Shown: positions 478 through 64,000 of the stretch, piece by piece
Layout of the letters: each line of letters opens with the position of its first letter
Numbering within the stretch: position 1 is the first letter of the stretch
IMG/VR virus record: IMGVR_UViG_3300031992_000028
Source of the DNA: a virus
Taxonomy: Duplodnaviria; Caudoviricetes
Reading direction: 5' to 3' (one strand)
DNA: 64,000 nucleotides
The notes under the pieces: generated by a model
Told to the model about the DNA's origin: nothing
Databases searched by the model: none
The model's input: only the letters and a program-made list of their open reading frames with translations
Program-made: the position numbers and the translations under genes

Positions 478-819
478 ATGGCAAGATATAGTTTACAAGA
501 TGCACGTAGATATATAGTTCAAGCATTCATGAGACTTAATAAAGCTCGTGGTTTAAATTTAGCTTTACTTGATTTAGAGTATGCAGATTTAATGGGCTGA
601 GATTTTATTAAAGCTCATATGTATGATAAAACAACTCACACTAAGTTTGATAGTATGCTTAATGAGTTTATTTTTACCAGAGAAGATACTATGACAAATT
701 TAGACACACAAGCTAAAATACTTGGAAAAAATCTAAATGAAAGAGAAAAAATTATTTTAAGAGTTGCTTATACTATTTGAAGAGACTGGAAGGAAACTAG
801 AAATGTTGACGTGGACTAA
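478..819 (+). CDS. LRIAY-family paralog (code 4)
   Basis: Starts 1 nt after the previous stop; 2 TGA; IILRVAYTIW. Confidence 0.8.
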
Positions 820-57526: not shown

Positions 57527-57752
57527 GATAAGTTCGGAGCGATACAGCTTTAAAACCAGGAACCGCGCTTATTGCTGGAGAACAGGCCTAACATACGGGG
57601 CACGTAAAGTTCAAAGGTGAATATTGATTTTGTACATTTATCCTAGGTATTAACGTATGTATGTTCAAAGCGATTGGCGCTTGACCGTAGAGAACATTAT
57701 TATATTGTGAAAAAGCGTAATAGCAGTAGGTGTACAACTATTGCTATTTTTT
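57527..57752 (+). ncRNA. candidate structured small RNA
   Basis: Own promoter; terminator AATAGCAGTAG..CTATTGCTATT; no ORF; ACATACG/CGTATGT stem. Confidence 0.5.
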
Positions 57753-57786
57753 TGTTTCTTATCGTATAATAATATTGAGGAAAAAT

Positions 57787-58347
57787 ATGAAATTTTATAC
57801 AAGCGACTTACATTTAGACCATGCTAATATGCTTAAATTTGAACCTGAAAGCAGACCATTTAATAATGTTGATGAAATGAATAGAGCTTTAATTCAATAT
57901 TGGAATGAAAAGGTCGGAGTTGACGATGAGGTTTATATTTTAGGAGATTTTTGTTTTGATAATCAAGGACGTAGAGCTACTGAATTTTTAAAACAATTAA
58001 ATGGCAAGAAATATTTAATTAAAGGAAATCATGATGGATTTATTTATAAATCACAATTTGATAAAAGTCAATTTGAATGGATTAAGGATTATGCAGCTAT
58101 TAAAGATGAAGTTAATGGTGAAGAAGTAACAGTTTGTTTATTTCATTATCCAATAGCTGTTTGGGATAGAAAACATCATCATGCATATCATCTATTTGGG
58201 CATATTCATAGTAACAAATCAGATGGTAGTCATCATGCATTAGAATTTGATTTAGGTGACCACGCATTTAATGTTGGTGTTGATGTTAGAAATCTAGAAC
58301 CGGTTACATTAGAAGAATTGATTAAATCAAGATACAGAGGCTATTAA
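57787..58347 (+). CDS. calcineurin-like metallophosphoesterase
   Basis: SDLHLDH, LGDF, KGNHD, HYP, GHIH, NVGVD. Confidence 0.9.
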   Translation: MKFYTSDLHLDHANMLKFEPESRPFNNVDEMNRALIQYWNEKVGVDDEVYILGDFCFDNQGRRATEFLKQLNGKKYLIKGNHDGFIYKSQFDKSQFEWIKDYAAIKDEVNGEEVTVCLFHYPIAVWDRKHHHAYHLFGHIHSNKSDGSHHALEFDLGDHAFNVGVDVRNLEPVTLEELIKSRYRGY

Positions 58348-60450: not shown

Positions 60451-62715
60451 ATGAGAACTCTATTAATTTTACGCGGAGCCCCTGGATGCGGTAAGTCAAC
60501 ATGGGTTAAAAACAATGGTTTATCCGCCTATACTTTATGTCCAGATGATATTCGTGTTATGTGCGCTTCAAGAGAATTGAAAGCAGATGGTGCTTTTGCT
60601 ATTGCAAGAAATCATGCAGTTGAACAAGAAACCTGGAAAATTATTTTAGACTTACTTGAATATAGAATGTCTCGTGGTGAATTAACAGTTTTAGATGCTA
60701 CAGCTTCAAAAACAAAAGATATTAAACAATATAAAGAATTAGCAGATCAATATAGATATAGAATGTATTGTGTTGATTTTACTGACATTCCTTTAGAAGT
60801 TTGTAAGAAACAAAACTTACAACGTCCAGAAGATAAAATTGTTCCAGAGCAAGGCATTGACAATATTTATGCTCGTTTTGCAACACAACCAGTTCCAGCT
60901 GGCGTCGAAGTTATTAAACCAAATGAATTAGATAAGGTTTTAGAAAAACCAATTGATTTGTCTTCTTATAGAAAAATCGTTTTTATTGGTGATATTCATG
61001 GCTGCTATGATACTTTAATGCAGTATTTTAAAGATGGTTTAGAAGATGATGTTGAATACATTTTTTTAGGAGATTATATTGACCGCGGTAATCAAAACGC
61101 TGAAGTTATGAATTGGTTATATTCTATTAAAGATAGACCAAATGTTTGCTTACTAGAAGGTAATCATGAAAGATGGATTCAAGCTTATGGCATGAACGTT
61201 GAAGCTAAATCAAAAGAATTTGAAGAAAAAACAAAAGGTCAATTAATTTTAGGCGGCTTTGATGAAAAAAAAGCTAGAATTTTCTATCGAAAGCTTCGTC
61301 AAATGTCTCATTTTACTTATAATGGTATTGAAGTTTTAGCAACTCATGGTGGTATTCCATGTATGCGTGCAAATCTTACTTATATTCCTACATGTGCTTT
61401 CATCAATGGTGTTGGTGAATACAATGATTATCAAGATGTTGCGGATACTTGGATGAGAGAAACTAAAGAAAATCAATATCAAGTTCATGGTCATCGTAAT
61501 ACTGCGCAAGACCCAGTTCAATTAGCTGATCGAGTTTTCAACTTAGAAGGTGAAGTTGAATTTGGTGGTAAGTTAAGAATTGTTGAATTAACTTCTGATA
61601 CTTATAATGGTTGGGCTTTTGGCCATCCAGAAGCTGGTTTAGTTACAGGTATTCATTGGAATGTCGTTGAGCTATCTAACTGTCAACCACTTACAGAAGA
61701 TTTTAATGTTGAAAAAGCTCCTGTTGAAACTGTTGAACAAGCAGTCGAATATCTAAGAAATAACCAATTTGTCAAAGAAAAGAAATTAGGTAATGGTATC
61801 TCTTCTTTCAACTTTACAAGAGAGGCCTTCTACTCTGCTAACTGGACTAGACAAACAGTTTTAGCACGTGGATTATTTATCGATACTGATAATAATAAGA
61901 TTATGGCTCGTTCATATGAAAAGTTCTTCCGTATCAATGAAGTCCGTGAAACTGAAATGGTTGCTTTAAAGAATAGGTTGAAATTCCCAGTTAAAGCCTA
62001 TATTAAAGAAAATGGTTTCTTAGGCATTGTTTCTTATAATTATAAAACCGATGATTTATTTATTGCAACTAAGTCATCTGATAAAGGTGATTGCGCGGAA
62101 TATTTTAATAAGATGCTTGAACCTTATAAAGAAAAGTTGCTTAATTTATTTAGAGCTCTTGATAAATCAGAAGACCAAGATACTTATTCATTTGTATTTG
62201 AGTGCGTTGATCAAGAAAATGACCCACACATTATTAAATATAGTAAAAGTGATATTTATTTATTAGATGTAGTGTATAATGACTTAGAATTTAAAACTTT
62301 ACCTTATTGGAGACTAAAAGAACTAGCAGAAGCTATTGGTTGTAAAGTTAAAACTGAGGCTTATACAATTAAAGACTACGATGAGTTCAGAGACCTTGTA
62401 AATAGAGCCGATAATGAAGATTATAAATATAATGGAAATTATATTGAAGGGTTCGTTTTCGTTGACCAGAATGGCTTTATGACTAAATTAAAGACAGGTT
62501 ATTACAATTTCTGGAAGCATATGAGAAGTGTTGCAGATTCAACTTTGAGATGCGGCTCTTATAGAAGAATGGGCTCATTACTTACTGTTCAAGGTAATCA
62601 ATTTGCAGCTTTCTGTAAGGAGTGTTTCAACAAGGATAGAATTAAAGAAACAAAGTCGTACCCTTACAAAACTGATATTATTTCGCTAAGAGAAAAGTTC
62701 TTATTTGGCAAATAA
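60451..62715 (+). CDS. polynucleotide kinase / metallophosphatase / Rnl1-type RNA ligase fusion (Pnkp-like)
   Basis: GAPGCGKST; GDIHG, GDYIDRG, GNHE; ARSYEKFF, KENGFLG, EGFV, KLK. Confidence 0.9.
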   Translation: MRTLLILRGAPGCGKSTWVKNNGLSAYTLCPDDIRVMCASRELKADGAFAIARNHAVEQETWKIILDLLEYRMSRGELTVLDATASKTKDIKQYKELADQYRYRMYCVDFTDIPLEVCKKQNLQRPEDKIVPEQGIDNIYARFATQPVPAGVEVIKPNELDKVLEKPIDLSSYRKIVFIGDIHGCYDTLMQYFKDGLEDDVEYIFLGDYIDRGNQNAEVMNWLYSIKDRPNVCLLEGNHERWIQAYGMNVEAKSKEFEEKTKGQLILGGFDEKKARIFYRKLRQMSHFTYNGIEVLATHGGIPCMRANLTYIPTCAFINGVGEYNDYQDVADTWMRETKENQYQVHGHRNTAQDPVQLADRVFNLEGEVEFGGKLRIVELTSDTYNGWAFGHPEAGLVTGIHWNVVELSNCQPLTEDFNVEKAPVETVEQAVEYLRNNQFVKEKKLGNGISSFNFTREAFYSANWTRQTVLARGLFIDTDNNKIMARSYEKFFRINEVRETEMVALKNRLKFPVKAYIKENGFLGIVSYNYKTDDLFIATKSSDKGDCAEYFNKMLEPYKEKLLNLFRALDKSEDQDTYSFVFECVDQENDPHIIKYSKSDIYLLDVVYNDLEFKTLPYWRLKELAEAIGCKVKTEAYTIKDYDEFRDLVNRADNEDYKYNGNYIEGFVFVDQNGFMTKLKTGYYNFWKHMRSVADSTLRCGSYRRMGSLLTVQGNQFAAFCKECFNKDRIKETKSYPYKTDIISLREKFLFGK

Positions 62716-62798
62716 TAAAAAGTTTAAAAATATTTAAGGGCTGAGAATAAAACTTAGCCCTTTTATTGTATAATATTATGTATTTGGAGGTAGTTTTT

Positions 62799-62999
62799 AT
62801 GTTAGAATTGCAAGAAATCATTCATCAATTAGCAAAGAGAGATGATATTGTCATTCAAGGTGATGTATACAAAGTGGCTAATGCTGTGTATATTACAGAT
62901 GGAGAGATTTTAAAAACAAGACTCTTATTAAAGAGTACAAGTAGTAAAGACCAGGTAGCTATTGATATTGGTATTTCTGCAAAAATTTACAAGCGCTAA
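62799..62999 (+). CDS. hypothetical protein
   Basis: GGAGG SD. Confidence 0.6.
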   Translation: MLELQEIIHQLAKRDDIVIQGDVYKVANAVYITDGEILKTRLLLKSTSSKDQVAIDIGISAKIYKR

Positions 63000-63032
63000 A
63001 TTAACGTAGATAGGAAAGGTTAGTTTAATTTA

Positions 63033-63311
63033 ATGGAATTGTGTCTCGAAGATGAAATGCAAGCTCTTTTGGCTGAAGAGAGCTACTTAGACAACATGAT
63101 TAGTCAGCTATCAGAACTCAAATATAGAAAGGGTTATGATAAATTCTTAAAAGATATTACAAAATTATTAGATGAGTTAAAAGATAGAAAAGAAATGATA
63201 CAAAAAAATATACAAGAACTTACAGATGATATAGTAATGGCTGCTGAAGTATATGCAGGTGATTATTGCGCTAGTACTGATACAGTAGATAACTACATTT
63301 GAGATTATTAA
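63033..63311 (+). CDS. coiled-coil hypothetical protein (code 4)
   Basis: CGCTAAATTA at 62994; TGA63300 read through to TAA. Confidence 0.65.
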
Positions 63312-63334
63312 AAATACATTTGCTAAATTATATA

Positions 63335-63990
63335 AAGATATCGCAGGATAATTGCAATAATGGCTTCCTGCAGAAACTATGCTTATTTCTTAAAACCGCC
63401 GGAGGTCCGCGGCTAATCTGGATCGCCATTCTAAAATATAGCTAGTTCGGATATTGCAGCAAATAGACTATAGATAATATTTAGCCAGAGCGGTACGACT
63501 TGTGGTCAAATCCCAGAGGAGATTAAGGAGACTGGGTGTCTGACGACTAGCTACAAGCAAAATGGCAGAAGCTGTACTTATTTCCAGGTCTCTAGTGATA
63601 TACAACCAAAAGTTGTATAGCACTATAATAACAGTTATGTTAATGGAAATTGGCCGCAACAGTCAGTTCAAATATTGTTTATAGTCTATTTTTATTTTTA
63701 AAAAACTATCGTATAATAATATAGAGCTTGTGCTTATTTCTAAATTACGAATCTTGAAAATCCGCGACATTAGCCAAGCCAAAATAAAAAATTTAAAAAA
63801 AATTATTTACATTTTAAAAAATTTATTGTATAATAATAATGTGAGTGAATGAAACTCACAGTTAGAGCCTATACTTATTTCTCAGAAATATGGTATTCTA
63901 ATTAGTTAGGCCAAATCGTTAATATATTCAAGCAGTTTTTGGAATATTAGGCGAATTGGCAGTCTAATATCTCAAAGGCTGCTTTTTATG
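63335..63990 (+). ncRNA. cluster of structured RNAs sharing a CTTATTTC motif
   Basis: Three promoter-like motifs, four motif copies with flanking stems, long inverted repeat 63461-63482/63670-63691. Confidence 0.6.
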
Positions 63991-64000
63991 TAAAGGAGGT

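What the first reader, a model, noticed from the sequence alone, without database searches (positions are those of the whole stretch)
63371..63915. Four copies of a covarying RNA motif (stem + RCTTATTTC) in an ORF-free region
Seen: CTTATTTC at 63382, 63577, 63733 and 63874, each preceded by AGA and a variable 4-5-mer whose complement lies downstream: CTAT/ATAG (63438), CTGT/ACAG (63659), GCTTG/CAAGC (63775), GCCTA/TAGGC (63907). In three copies TTTC can pair with a later GAAA(A)T around inserts of very different length. Copies 1 and 2 both end in AGTTC. Promoter-like motifs lie at 63321, about 63711 and about 63826. The 5' part (TAGAGCTTGTGCTTATTTC) loosely resembles streptococcal type II-A CRISPR repeats (GTTTTAGAGCTGTG..). 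Inference: a new structured RNA family, perhaps repeat-mimic anti-CRISPR RNAs, protein decoys or ribozymes.
Basis: partly seen in the sequence, partly recalled or inferred. Interest (0 to 1): 0.72.

Follow-up and report, generated by a model that had tools for sequence, protein, structure and literature searches.

The report
Phage handle RNAs beside TerD-domain protein
The four repeats are real small folded RNAs that share one conserved "handle"; this handle always sits in front of one uncharacterised protein gene in gut and rumen phages and some bacteria, and in relatives it carries tRNA look-alikes, so the pair probably forms an undescribed RNA-protein particle resembling Ro60 with its Y RNAs.

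Summary
RCTTATTTC occurs four times in 63371-63915 and only twice elsewhere in the 64 kb. All four copies fit one architecture: AGA, a 5-bp stem, a bulged U, a 3-bp stem (RCU/AGY), then UAUUUC, a variable cargo and the 3' strand.

The motif is a large family. 82 of 94 5' motifs in IMG/VR loci have a perfect 3' partner, against 11-23 in permuted controls. There are 27 different stem sequences, and Rfam has no match.

Relatives lie inside phage tRNA arrays. Their cargo is often a tRNA look-alike, and ARAGORN reads all 15 cargoes of 86 nt or more as circularly permuted tRNAs.

In all 25 loci fetched by protein alone, a handle lies just upstream, on the same strand, of a ~670-aa helical + TerD-fold protein with no Pfam family. 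By synteny that gene starts just past the window end. A trifunctional RNA-repair enzyme lies 650 nt upstream.

The CRISPR-repeat resemblance is coincidental, and no known ribozyme matches. The best reading is partner RNAs of a Ro60/Y-RNA-like particle, but binding is inferred. This scan has noted the same system in other genomes; I found no paper on it.

The parts
60451..62715 (+). Neighbouring gene: Pnkp-like trifunctional RNA-repair enzyme (P-loop kinase, metallophosphoesterase and T4-type RNA ligase domains)
   Evidence: Pfam AAA_33 (4e-17), Metallophos (7e-18) and RNA_lig_T4_1 (1.4e-39); PHROG 8238 'RNA ligase' at 9e-198
63368..63459 (+). Handle RNA copy 1. Outer stem 63368-73 / 63454-59. 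Handle 5' strand 63372-63389 (AGA, AACTA, U, GCU, UAUUUC). 50-nt cargo 63390-63439 with a GC-rich hairpin. Handle 3' strand 63440-63448 (AGC, TAGTT, C).
   Evidence: Model R1 at E 7.5e-4. RNAalifold with relative L001 recovers the outer stem, the handle and a cargo hairpin with 3 compensatory changes.
63461..63699 (+). Composite RNA holding copy 2. Outer stem of about 21 bp, 63461-82 / 63670-91, followed by a U run at 63690-99. Extra structured domain 63483-63566. Handle 5' strand 63567-63584 (AGA, AGCTG, U, ACU, UAUUUC). 76-nt cargo 63585-63660 with a 13-bp hairpin. Handle 3' strand 63661-63669 (AGU, CAGTT, C).
   Evidence: R1 at E 7.6e-4. The outer stem has one compensatory U-A to C-G change against L001. 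The cargo hairpin appears in both folds.
63712..63780 (+). Copy 3. -10 box TATAAT 63712-17, so the RNA starts about 63723. Handle 5' strand 63723-63740 (AGA, GCTTG, U, GCU, UAUUUC). 31-nt AU-rich cargo 63741-63771. Handle 3' strand 63772-63780 (AGC, CAAGC, C).
   Evidence: R1 at E 1.5e-14; sequence read directly
63806..63988 (+). Copy 4, in the leader of the partner gene. Promoter TTTACA-17-TATAAT 63806-63834. 5' hairpin 63841-63859. Handle 5' strand 63864-63881 (AGA, GCCTA, U, ACU, UAUUUC). 22-nt cargo 63882-63903. Handle 3' strand 63904-63912 (AGU, TAGGC, C). Terminator hairpin 63930-63983 plus U run 63984-88.
   Evidence: Promoter matches 11 of 12. R1 at E 8e-13. Fold z-score -4.9. The 5' hairpin differs in sequence but is kept in L001.
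63993..64000 (+). Ribosome-binding site (AAGGAGG) of the next gene. By synteny that gene is the 677-aa helical + TerD-fold protein and starts about 20 nt past the window end.
   Evidence: In L001 the last ~85 nt of the window are repeated letter for letter, and the 677-aa ORF follows at L001 7551-9584. L001 is a relative whose Pnkp is 95% identical.

Best explanation
The four elements are small non-coding RNAs of one large, apparently undescribed family.

The handle. Each RNA has a constant handle: a 5-bp stem of free but compensated sequence, one bulged U, a 3-bp stem RCU/AGY, and a single-stranded UAUUUC(U). The handle encloses a variable cargo.

The cargo. In this window the cargoes are short hairpins or AU-rich loops. 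In related phages the same handle carries whole tRNA look-alikes or circularly permuted ones. The permuted ones run anticodon arm, T arm, loop-closed acceptor stem, D arm.

The partner. I infer that the handle is the docking site of the ~670-aa helical + TerD-fold protein. Its gene starts just past the window end and always has a handle RNA in its leader. RNA and protein would then form a particle built on the plan of Ro60 with its Y RNAs (YrlA): the protein holds the handle and the cargo is displayed.

The role. The RNAs lie among phage tRNA genes and next to RNA-repair enzymes, and the cargoes keep intact anticodon loops. From this I infer that the particle acts in the contest over tRNA cleavage and repair during infection, for example by presenting tRNA mimics to tRNA-directed enzymes or nucleases.

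Copy 4. Its order is promoter, RNA, terminator, RBS, gene. It would be made in excess as a free RNA, with read-through giving the protein's mRNA. Feedback by the protein on its own leader is possible.

Shown: the RNA family, its structure, its cargo types and its strict gene linkage. Inferred: transcription, binding and function.
For: Structure:
- 82 of 94 5' motifs have a perfect AG-Y-N5' partner within 300 nt. Twenty controls with the 5-mers permuted gave 11-23.
- There are 27 different 5-mers, and the R:Y pair covaries as G-C, A-U and (in L143/L145) U-A.
- Sliding the partner strand by 1-3 columns drops pairing from 98% to 5-60%.
- Single non-Watson-Crick pairs are mostly G:U on this strand: 4, against 1 A:C.

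In the window:
- R1 finds exactly the four copies.
- Copies 1 and 2 show further compensatory changes against L001.
- Promoters and terminators flank the copies.

Gene linkage:
- ORF clustering of motif-selected loci gave one ~670-aa protein in 16 loci, next to or between the units.
- In the reverse test, 22 of 25 loci fetched by that protein alone have an R1 hit (E <= 1e-9) on the same strand, ending 45-200 nt before the gene.
- The other three loci are 40%-identical homologues in GC-richer bacterial DNA. They carry a diverged handle at the same spot (E 0.03 and 0.06, and one seen by eye).

Cargo:
- ARAGORN calls a tRNA across the rotated junction in 15 of 15 cargoes of 86 nt or more.
- Three cargoes are tRNA-like in normal order.
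- This T arm / closed acceptor stem / D arm order is that of YrlA (PMC4201824).

Context:
- Units abut tRNA genes in arrays of 6-19 tRNAs.
- The window's relative has 9 units, 4 before the protein gene and 5 in the region of its tRNA genes.
- RNA-repair genes are adjacent: Pnkp-like here, and an AAA_33 kinase in L022.

Protein:
- The family has 1275 representatives at 50% identity.
Against: - There is no direct evidence of transcription, of RNA-protein binding or of any function. All of it rests on genomic association.
- The partner protein has no recognised RNA-binding domain.
- The handle lacks the Ro-binding motif GNCGAAN0-1G / GGUCCGA.
- One 230-kb contig rated complete carries a unit but no detectable homologue of the protein.
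- None of the window's own four copies has a tRNA-like cargo, so the tRNA link for them is by family and neighbourhood only.
- The pair counts come from units chosen for perfect pairing. Only the partner-versus-control test is unbiased.
Confidence: 0.62

Rival explanations
1. The handle is mainly a cis-acting leader of the 670-aa gene. It would be an operator or attenuator through which the protein, or another factor, controls termination or translation. The dispersed copies would be by-products or titrating decoys.
For: Every homologue of the gene has a short-cargo handle in its leader. An intrinsic terminator or U run lies between the handle and the RBS. The bacterial loci have a single leader copy, or two in tandem in L144.
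Against: Phages carry 4-9 or more further copies far from the gene. These have their own promoters or sit between tRNA genes, where tRNA processing would release them. Their elaborate tRNA-like cargoes make little sense for a leader. This reading is compatible with the main one (partner RNA plus autoregulation), not exclusive of it.
Confidence: 0.12
2. The elements are RNA-processing signals or small self-cleaving ribozymes that punctuate tRNA-array transcripts, or that mature split or permuted tRNAs. Cleavage at the handle would be followed by healing and sealing by the neighbouring kinase-phosphatase-ligase.
For: The units abut tRNA genes. The permuted tRNA cargoes would need cutting and joining to become normal tRNAs. 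Some encode the discriminator base plus CCA in the acceptor loop. A Pnkp-type healing-and-sealing enzyme lies 650 nt upstream.
Against: No known ribozyme family matches. Most units, including all four here, carry no tRNA part at all. Many permuted cargoes close the acceptor stem with a tetraloop and have no CCA. The bacterial chromosomal copies have no tRNA array or ligase nearby.
Confidence: 0.1
3. The elements are mimics of type II CRISPR repeats (RNA anti-CRISPRs or natural single-guide-like RNAs) that soak up or redirect host Cas9.
For: By eye, UAGAGCUUGUGCUUAUUUC (copy 3) resembles the start of streptococcal II-A repeats. This rests on my memory of those repeats and was not tested. Copy 4 has about 20 nt between its promoter and the motif.
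Against: The resembling stretch is the compensated stem, with 27 variants. Distant members read GAGCCAACUCUUAUUUC. The 20 nt before copy 4 form a hairpin that is conserved in structure. No Rfam CRISPR-DR family matches. Linkage is to tRNA arrays and the 670-aa gene, including housekeeping neighbourhoods in bacteria.
Confidence: 0.02
4. The elements are DNA-level repeats, such as hairpin recombination sites or miniature mobile elements, with no RNA function.
For: They are dispersed, multi-copy and have inverted-repeat ends with a variable interior.
Against: All copies lie on the strand of the tRNAs and of the partner gene. They have promoters and terminators. The non-Watson-Crick pairs are mostly G:U on that strand. 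The interiors are folded RNA-type modules such as tRNA mimics.
Confidence: 0.03

Closest known systems
Bacterial and phage Y RNAs (YrlA/YrlB, Rfam RF02553) with Ro60/Rsr (TROVE + vWA); Chen et al. 2014, PMC4201824; Thermus phage phiRo60, PMC12135203
   Same: - The RNAs are modular: a terminal bulged stem serves as the protein handle and an interchangeable module is attached.
- In relatives the module is a tRNA mimic in the order T arm, loop-closed acceptor stem, D arm.
- The RNAs are encoded next to, and on the strand of, a protein of about 550-670 aa that has a helical-repeat domain followed by a domain that binds divalent cations in its named relatives.
- There are several RNAs per protein gene.
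- RNA-repair genes are neighbours: rsr-yrlBA-rtcBA in Salmonella, a Pnkp-like gene here.
   Different: - The handle sequence is unrelated. It has no GNCGAAN0-1G or GGUCCGA; instead it has N5, bulged U, RCU, UAUUUC.
- There is no hit to RF02553.
- The protein has no TROVE match and ends in a TerD beta-sandwich, not a vWA domain.
- Several permuted cargoes keep an intact anticodon stem-loop, and the handle joins at position 28/29 or 29/30 of the anticodon stem instead of replacing the arm.
- Many members, including all four here, have no tRNA-like part.
Circularly permuted and split tRNA genes (Cyanidioschyzon merolae; Nanoarchaeum equitans)
   Same: In relatives the 3' half of a tRNA precedes its 5' half, and flanking complementary sequences pair next to the break in the anticodon arm.
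   Different: - There is no bulge-helix-bulge motif, and I saw no sign of a splicing endonuclease.
- The acceptor end is often closed by a tetraloop without CCA.
- The same flanks also enclose non-tRNA cargo.
- The system is bacterial and phage, not archaeal or eukaryotic.
Solitary CRISPR repeat units / RNA anti-CRISPRs (from my own knowledge; I did not look for or read a paper on them)
   Same: Short, promoter-driven phage RNAs in several copies; loose sequence likeness of one copy to type II-A repeats.
   Different: The look-alike stretch varies and is compensated. There is no repeat-spacer periodicity, and the linkage is to tRNA arrays and a non-Cas protein.
TerD-family proteins (PDB 2kxt, 2qz7, 3ibz)
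   Different: It is fused to a ~420-residue helical-repeat domain and is not in a ter operon. Pfam TerD does not hit. The only sequence match is a weak one to NCBIfam NF041916 (E 1e-19 to 1e-21, far below its cut-off).

Membership tests
Handle-RNA family defined here (model R1) | 5-bp compensated stem, one bulged nucleotide, 3-bp RCU/AGY stem, then UAUUUC, enclosing a variable cargo | tested here: met
   All four window copies fit. R1 gives E 1.5e-14, 8e-13, 7.5e-4 and 7.6e-4, with no other significant hit in the 64 kb.
Handle-RNA family defined here (model R1) | A copy lies just upstream, on the same strand, of the ~670-aa helical + TerD gene | tested here: met
   The gene itself lies past the window end. 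The RBS is at 63993-99. In the syntenic relative L001/L147 the gene follows copy 4. 25 of 25 protein-anchored loci show the arrangement.
YrlA / Y RNA (Rfam RF02553) | Match to the Rfam covariance model | tested here: not met
   No hit at gathering threshold over the window. No hit at E <= 10 over 63000-64000.
YrlA / Y RNA (Rfam RF02553) | Ro60-binding motif GNCGAAN0-1G (bacteria) or GGUCCGA (animals) near the 5' end | tested here: not met
   The motif definition comes from PMC4201824. It is absent from the handles read.
YrlA / Y RNA (Rfam RF02553) | tRNA-like domain in the order T arm, closed acceptor stem, D arm | tested here: not met
   Not met for the four window copies. Met in relatives: ARAGORN reads 15 of 15 rotated cargoes of 86 nt or more as tRNAs.
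YrlA / Y RNA (Rfam RF02553) | Encoded next to a Ro60/Rsr (TROVE) gene | tested here: inconclusive
Type II CRISPR repeat mimic (RNA anti-CRISPR) | Copies keep the sequence of one host repeat | tested here: not met
   The look-alike stretch has 27 variants with compensating partners. The host and its repeats are unknown, so no direct comparison was possible.
Known self-cleaving ribozymes (Rfam) | Match to a ribozyme covariance model | tested here: not met
   No hits. Self-cleavage as such cannot be tested here.
tRNA | Cloverleaf recognised by ARAGORN | tested here: not met
   There are 0 tRNA genes in the window. The window cargoes are not recognised even after rotation.
TerD fold (partner protein, C-terminal domain) | Structural match to solved TerD proteins | tested here: met

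The most novel reading that the evidence does not exclude
Handle RNAs plus the helical + TerD protein form a widespread ribonucleoprotein that is not related to Ro60 and has arrived at the same plan independently. One protein docks a whole family of RNAs, and their swappable cargoes include tRNAs opened at the anticodon stem. Phages and some gut bacteria use it to sense, decoy or repair tRNA damage.
Probability: 0.4. Interest if true: 0.85.

Novelty: new variant of a known kind. Interest (0 to 1): 0.74.

Why it matters
Ro60 with its Y RNAs is so far the only well-studied particle in which a protein carries tRNA-mimicking RNAs, and what it does in bacteria is still unclear.

A second, much more varied system with a different handle and a different protein would give a natural panel for asking what displayed tRNA look-alikes are for. 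The panel would include short loops, whole tRNA mimics and tRNAs rotated at several positions.

It would also add an unannotated gene class to large gut and rumen phages. The relative of this phage has at least nine such RNA genes, and none is found by Rfam or by tRNA finders.

It would assign a first context to a protein family of more than a thousand 50%-identity clusters that has no Pfam family or informative name.

Its position next to healing-and-sealing RNA-repair enzymes ties it to the phage-host contest over tRNA cleavage.

Tried and rejected
- Rfam at gathering and at permissive thresholds gave only noise (snoRNA-type hits, E 0.3-3). ARAGORN found no tRNA in the window.
- Single-sequence folds of copies 1-3 are no better than shuffles (z +0.5 to -1.3). 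Only comparison with relatives shows the structure.
- blastn against isolated phages matched only an AT-rich promoter stretch. No whole genome is held for the window.
- The pattern for copies 1 and 2 (GCAGAANCTNTNCTTATTTC) gave five unrelated loci.
- Most of the more than 120 hits to TAGAGCNNNNNCTTATTTC are chance. Only about 30 loci hold true units by R1.
- A '550-aa protein cluster' beside the units turned out to be a spurious antisense ORF inside the partner gene.
- The partner protein had no Pfam or PDB sequence match.
- I could not run a profile-profile comparison with TROVE, because no TROVE alignment was at hand.
- Literature searches found no description of this pair (permuted tRNA + bacteriophage; Ro60 + Y RNA + phage; TROVE + TerD; Y RNA + TerD; tRNA array + structured RNA). 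The catalogue of 10,006 unnamed viral RNA candidates (PMC10690425) may contain it.
- PMC5062991 (Burroughs and Aravind 2016 on RNA repair systems) is not held.
- I did not use the complex predictor, because it takes no RNA.

Full report
**1. The observation**

The region 63300-64000 lies between two small ORFs (62766-62999 and 63033-63302) and the window end. It holds only short ORFs of 63 aa or fewer. RCTTATTTC occurs at 63381, 63576, 63732 and 63873 on the + strand and only twice elsewhere in the 64 kb.

Read against relatives, all four copies fit one architecture. In order it is:
- AGA
- a 5-nt segment N5
- one U
- RCU
- UAUUUC
- a variable cargo
- AGY
- the complement of N5
- C

The stems in the window are:

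| Copy | N5 stem | 3-bp stem |
|---|---|---|
| 1 | AACTA / TAGTT | GCU / AGC |
| 2 | AGCTG / CAGTT (one G:U pair) | ACU / AGU |
| 3 | GCTTG / CAAGC | GCU / AGC |
| 4 | GCCTA / TAGGC | ACU / AGU |

Those for copies 1 and 2 (CTAT/ATAG, CTGT/ACAG) are off register. The shared 'AGTTC' ending is simply the 3' strand of the stem.

**2. It is a family**

Rfam 15 and ARAGORN find nothing here. A scan of IMG/VR for TAGAGCNNNNNCTTATTTC returned more than 120 loci. Several have many copies spaced 70-150 nt apart inside phage tRNA arrays of 6-19 tRNA genes.

The unbiased test of the structure is this. Of 94 occurrences of the 5' motif in 1.25 Mb of fetched DNA, 82 have a perfect AG-Y-N5' partner within 300 nt. 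Twenty controls in which the 5-mers were permuted among sites gave 11-23. There are 27 different 5-mers.

On an alignment of 31 short units, 98% of cells pair, and 6 of 8 pairs show double changes. Sliding the 3' strand by 1-3 columns drops pairing to 5-60%. Those units were chosen for pairing, so one search carries the weight.

Distant members add a third state of the R:Y pair (U-A), a C in place of the bulged U, and in one locus no bulge at all.

A covariance model (R1) recovers exactly the four window copies. It marks about 30 of the pattern-selected loci as true members, and the rest are chance.

**3. Cargo**

Cargo length falls into classes:
- 22-37 nt, AU-rich, often with a UUGGG core
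- 41-57 nt, sometimes a lone T arm
- 73-117 nt

Three long cargoes are tRNA-like in normal order, with odd anticodon loops of 5-7 nt.

In all 15 cargoes of 86 nt or more, ARAGORN finds a tRNA only after the cargo is rotated. By eye, these run in this order:
- part of the anticodon stem
- an intact anticodon loop (Lys UUU, Asn GUU, Arg UCU, Thr UGU, Ser GCU, Ile GAU)
- variable loop
- T arm
- acceptor 3' strand
- a closing loop (a tetraloop, or the discriminator base plus CCA)
- acceptor 5' strand
- D arm

The handle joins at position 28/29 or 29/30 of the anticodon stem, or in the loop.

The window's own cargoes are not tRNA-like:
- Copy 1 has a GC-rich hairpin with three compensatory changes against the relative L001.
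- Copy 2 has a 13-bp hairpin. Together with a further domain (63483-63566) it sits inside a ~21-bp outer stem, 63461-82 / 63670-91, which shows one compensatory change and is followed by a U run.
- Copies 3 and 4 have short loops.

**4. The linked gene**

All-against-all clustering of ORFs in the fetched loci gave one protein of 650-680 aa in 16 loci. It always lies next to or between the units.

L001 is a 146-kb contig whose Pnkp is 95% identical to the window's. It is syntenic with the window, and the last ~85 nt of the window recur there letter for letter. The 677-aa ORF follows the terminator after copy 4. The window therefore stops about 20 nt before this gene, and its RBS is at 63993-99.

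The reverse test used loci fetched by the protein alone: 19 viral contigs and 6 contigs of metagenome-assembled genomes.
- 22 of the 25 have an R1 hit with E <= 1e-9 on the same strand, ending 45-200 nt before the gene.
- The other three are 40%-identical homologues in GC-richer DNA. They carry a diverged handle in the same place.

Three of the distant loci are ordinary bacterial neighbourhoods: dnaG-rpoD-NIF3; a TRAM/U5 methyltransferase and ATP synthase; RmuC and DinB. The pair is therefore not confined to phages.

One 230-kb contig rated complete has a unit but no homologue of the protein.

**5. The protein**

It has no Pfam family and no sequence relative in the PDB. It gives a weak NCBIfam match to NF041916, far below that model's cut-off. 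The family is large: 524 close clusters and 1275 representatives at 50% identity. None carries an informative name.

The AlphaFold model has pLDDT 78 and pTM 0.70.
- The N-terminal ~420 residues are helical.

**6. Context in the window and its relative**

A 754-aa protein at 60451-62715 combines a P-loop kinase, a metallophosphoesterase and a T4-type RNA ligase domain. That is the domain set of the bacterial Pnkp healing-and-sealing enzyme. In another lineage an AAA_33 kinase precedes the unit and the gene.

The relative's contig has nine R1 hits. Four lie before the protein gene, as in the window. Five lie 4-19 kb downstream of it, in the region of its tRNA genes. There, units abut tRNA genes so closely that tRNA processing would release them.

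**7. Interpretation**

Shown:
- a structured RNA family
- modular cargo that includes permuted tRNA mimics
- strict linkage to one protein family
- association with tRNA arrays and RNA-repair genes

Inferred:
- The handle is the docking site of the helical + TerD protein.
- The pair is a particle on the plan of Ro60 with Y RNAs, acting in the conflict over tRNA cleavage and repair.

The layout of copy 4 (promoter, RNA, terminator, RBS, gene) fits a partner RNA made in excess, with read-through for the protein. Autoregulation is possible.

Rivals:
- A pure cis-regulatory leader is disfavoured by the dispersed copies and their cargo.
- A processing signal or ribozyme for permuted tRNAs is disfavoured because most units have no tRNA part.
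- A CRISPR-repeat mimic is disfavoured because the look-alike stretch is the compensated stem.
- A DNA-level repeat is disfavoured by the strand bias, the promoters and terminators, and the G:U pairs.

**8. Comparison with what is known**

The nearest known system is YrlA with Ro60/Rsr (PMC4201824). Shared features are the modular plan, the order of the tRNA-like domain, the adjacency to the protein gene and the RNA-repair neighbours.

Membership fails on three counts, and kinship of the protein to Ro60 is inconclusive. The failures are:
- no RF02553 match
- no GNCGAA-type Ro motif
- no TROVE domain

I found no paper that describes this RNA or this protein. An unnamed entry in a bulk catalogue of viral RNA candidates is possible (PMC10690425).

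**9. Earlier notes of this scan**

After I had written down the Y-RNA-like reading and found the protein, look-ups showed that this scan has noted the same system in at least ten other genomes in recent days. That system is the bulged-U handle, UAUUUCU, and a helical/TerD protein. Those notes are unchecked AI notes and do not count as independent support. They disagree on whether the protein is Ro60-related, and my tests leave that open.

**10. Verdict**

The finding is real, and it is part of a widespread, apparently undescribed RNA-protein gene pair. The anti-CRISPR and ribozyme readings are not supported. Function and binding remain to be shown.

Noticed in passing
window 60451-62715 (+): A 754-aa protein joins a P-loop polynucleotide kinase, a calcineurin-type phosphoesterase and a T4-type RNA ligase domain. 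This is a Pnkp-like RNA healing-and-sealing enzyme. It has relatives at 40-95% identity in ten viral contigs.
   Followed up: partly
window 57730-58347 (+): A second, separate metallophosphoesterase gene (PHROG 547), 2 kb upstream of the Pnkp-like gene.
   Followed up: no
window 63483-63566 (+): A GC-richer stretch between copies 1 and 2 is almost identical in the relative. It is enclosed, together with copy 2, by a ~21-bp outer stem. It folds into a long imperfect hairpin of unknown nature, and I did not find other homologues.
   Followed up: partly
window 63841-63859 and L001 7376-7400: The 5' hairpin between the promoter and the handle of copy 4 differs in sequence between the window (GTGAGT...ACTCAC) and the relative (GTAAG...CTTAC), but it stays a hairpin.
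   Followed up: no
L068 648-770, L095 116-239, L160 8989-9062: tRNA-like sequences in normal order, with anticodon loops of 5 or 6 nt. ARAGORN reports 'tRNA-???' with a 2-nt anticodon. Two of them lie inside a handle unit.
   Followed up: no
L022 8389-8549 and L038 10306-10466: Two nearly identical 117-nt permuted tRNA cargoes differ in the anticodon loop: CUGCUAA (GCU) against CUGUUAA (GUU). The displayed anticodon seems to change while the body stays the same.
   Followed up: no
L143 3857-8862: In a Christensenella-like MAG contig the handle RNA and the helical + TerD gene sit directly upstream of dnaG and rpoD. This is a housekeeping neighbourhood, not a phage one.
   Followed up: partly
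L144 3785-3990: Two handle units lie in tandem, the second with a permuted tRNA (Ile GAU loop). They are enclosed by one long outer stem plus a U run in the leader of the protein gene. Neither handle has the bulged nucleotide.
   Followed up: no
L133 / L165 (230-kb contig, unit at 675-752, minus strand): A contig rated 100% complete has one strong handle unit in a tRNA array but no detectable homologue of the partner protein.
   Followed up: partly
L037 3017-3147, L022 9181-9313, L099 7660-7793: In these permuted cargoes the octamer TTCCAGCT occurs at both ends of the cargo. It could be a trace of how the permutation arose, or it could allow alternative pairings.
   Followed up: no
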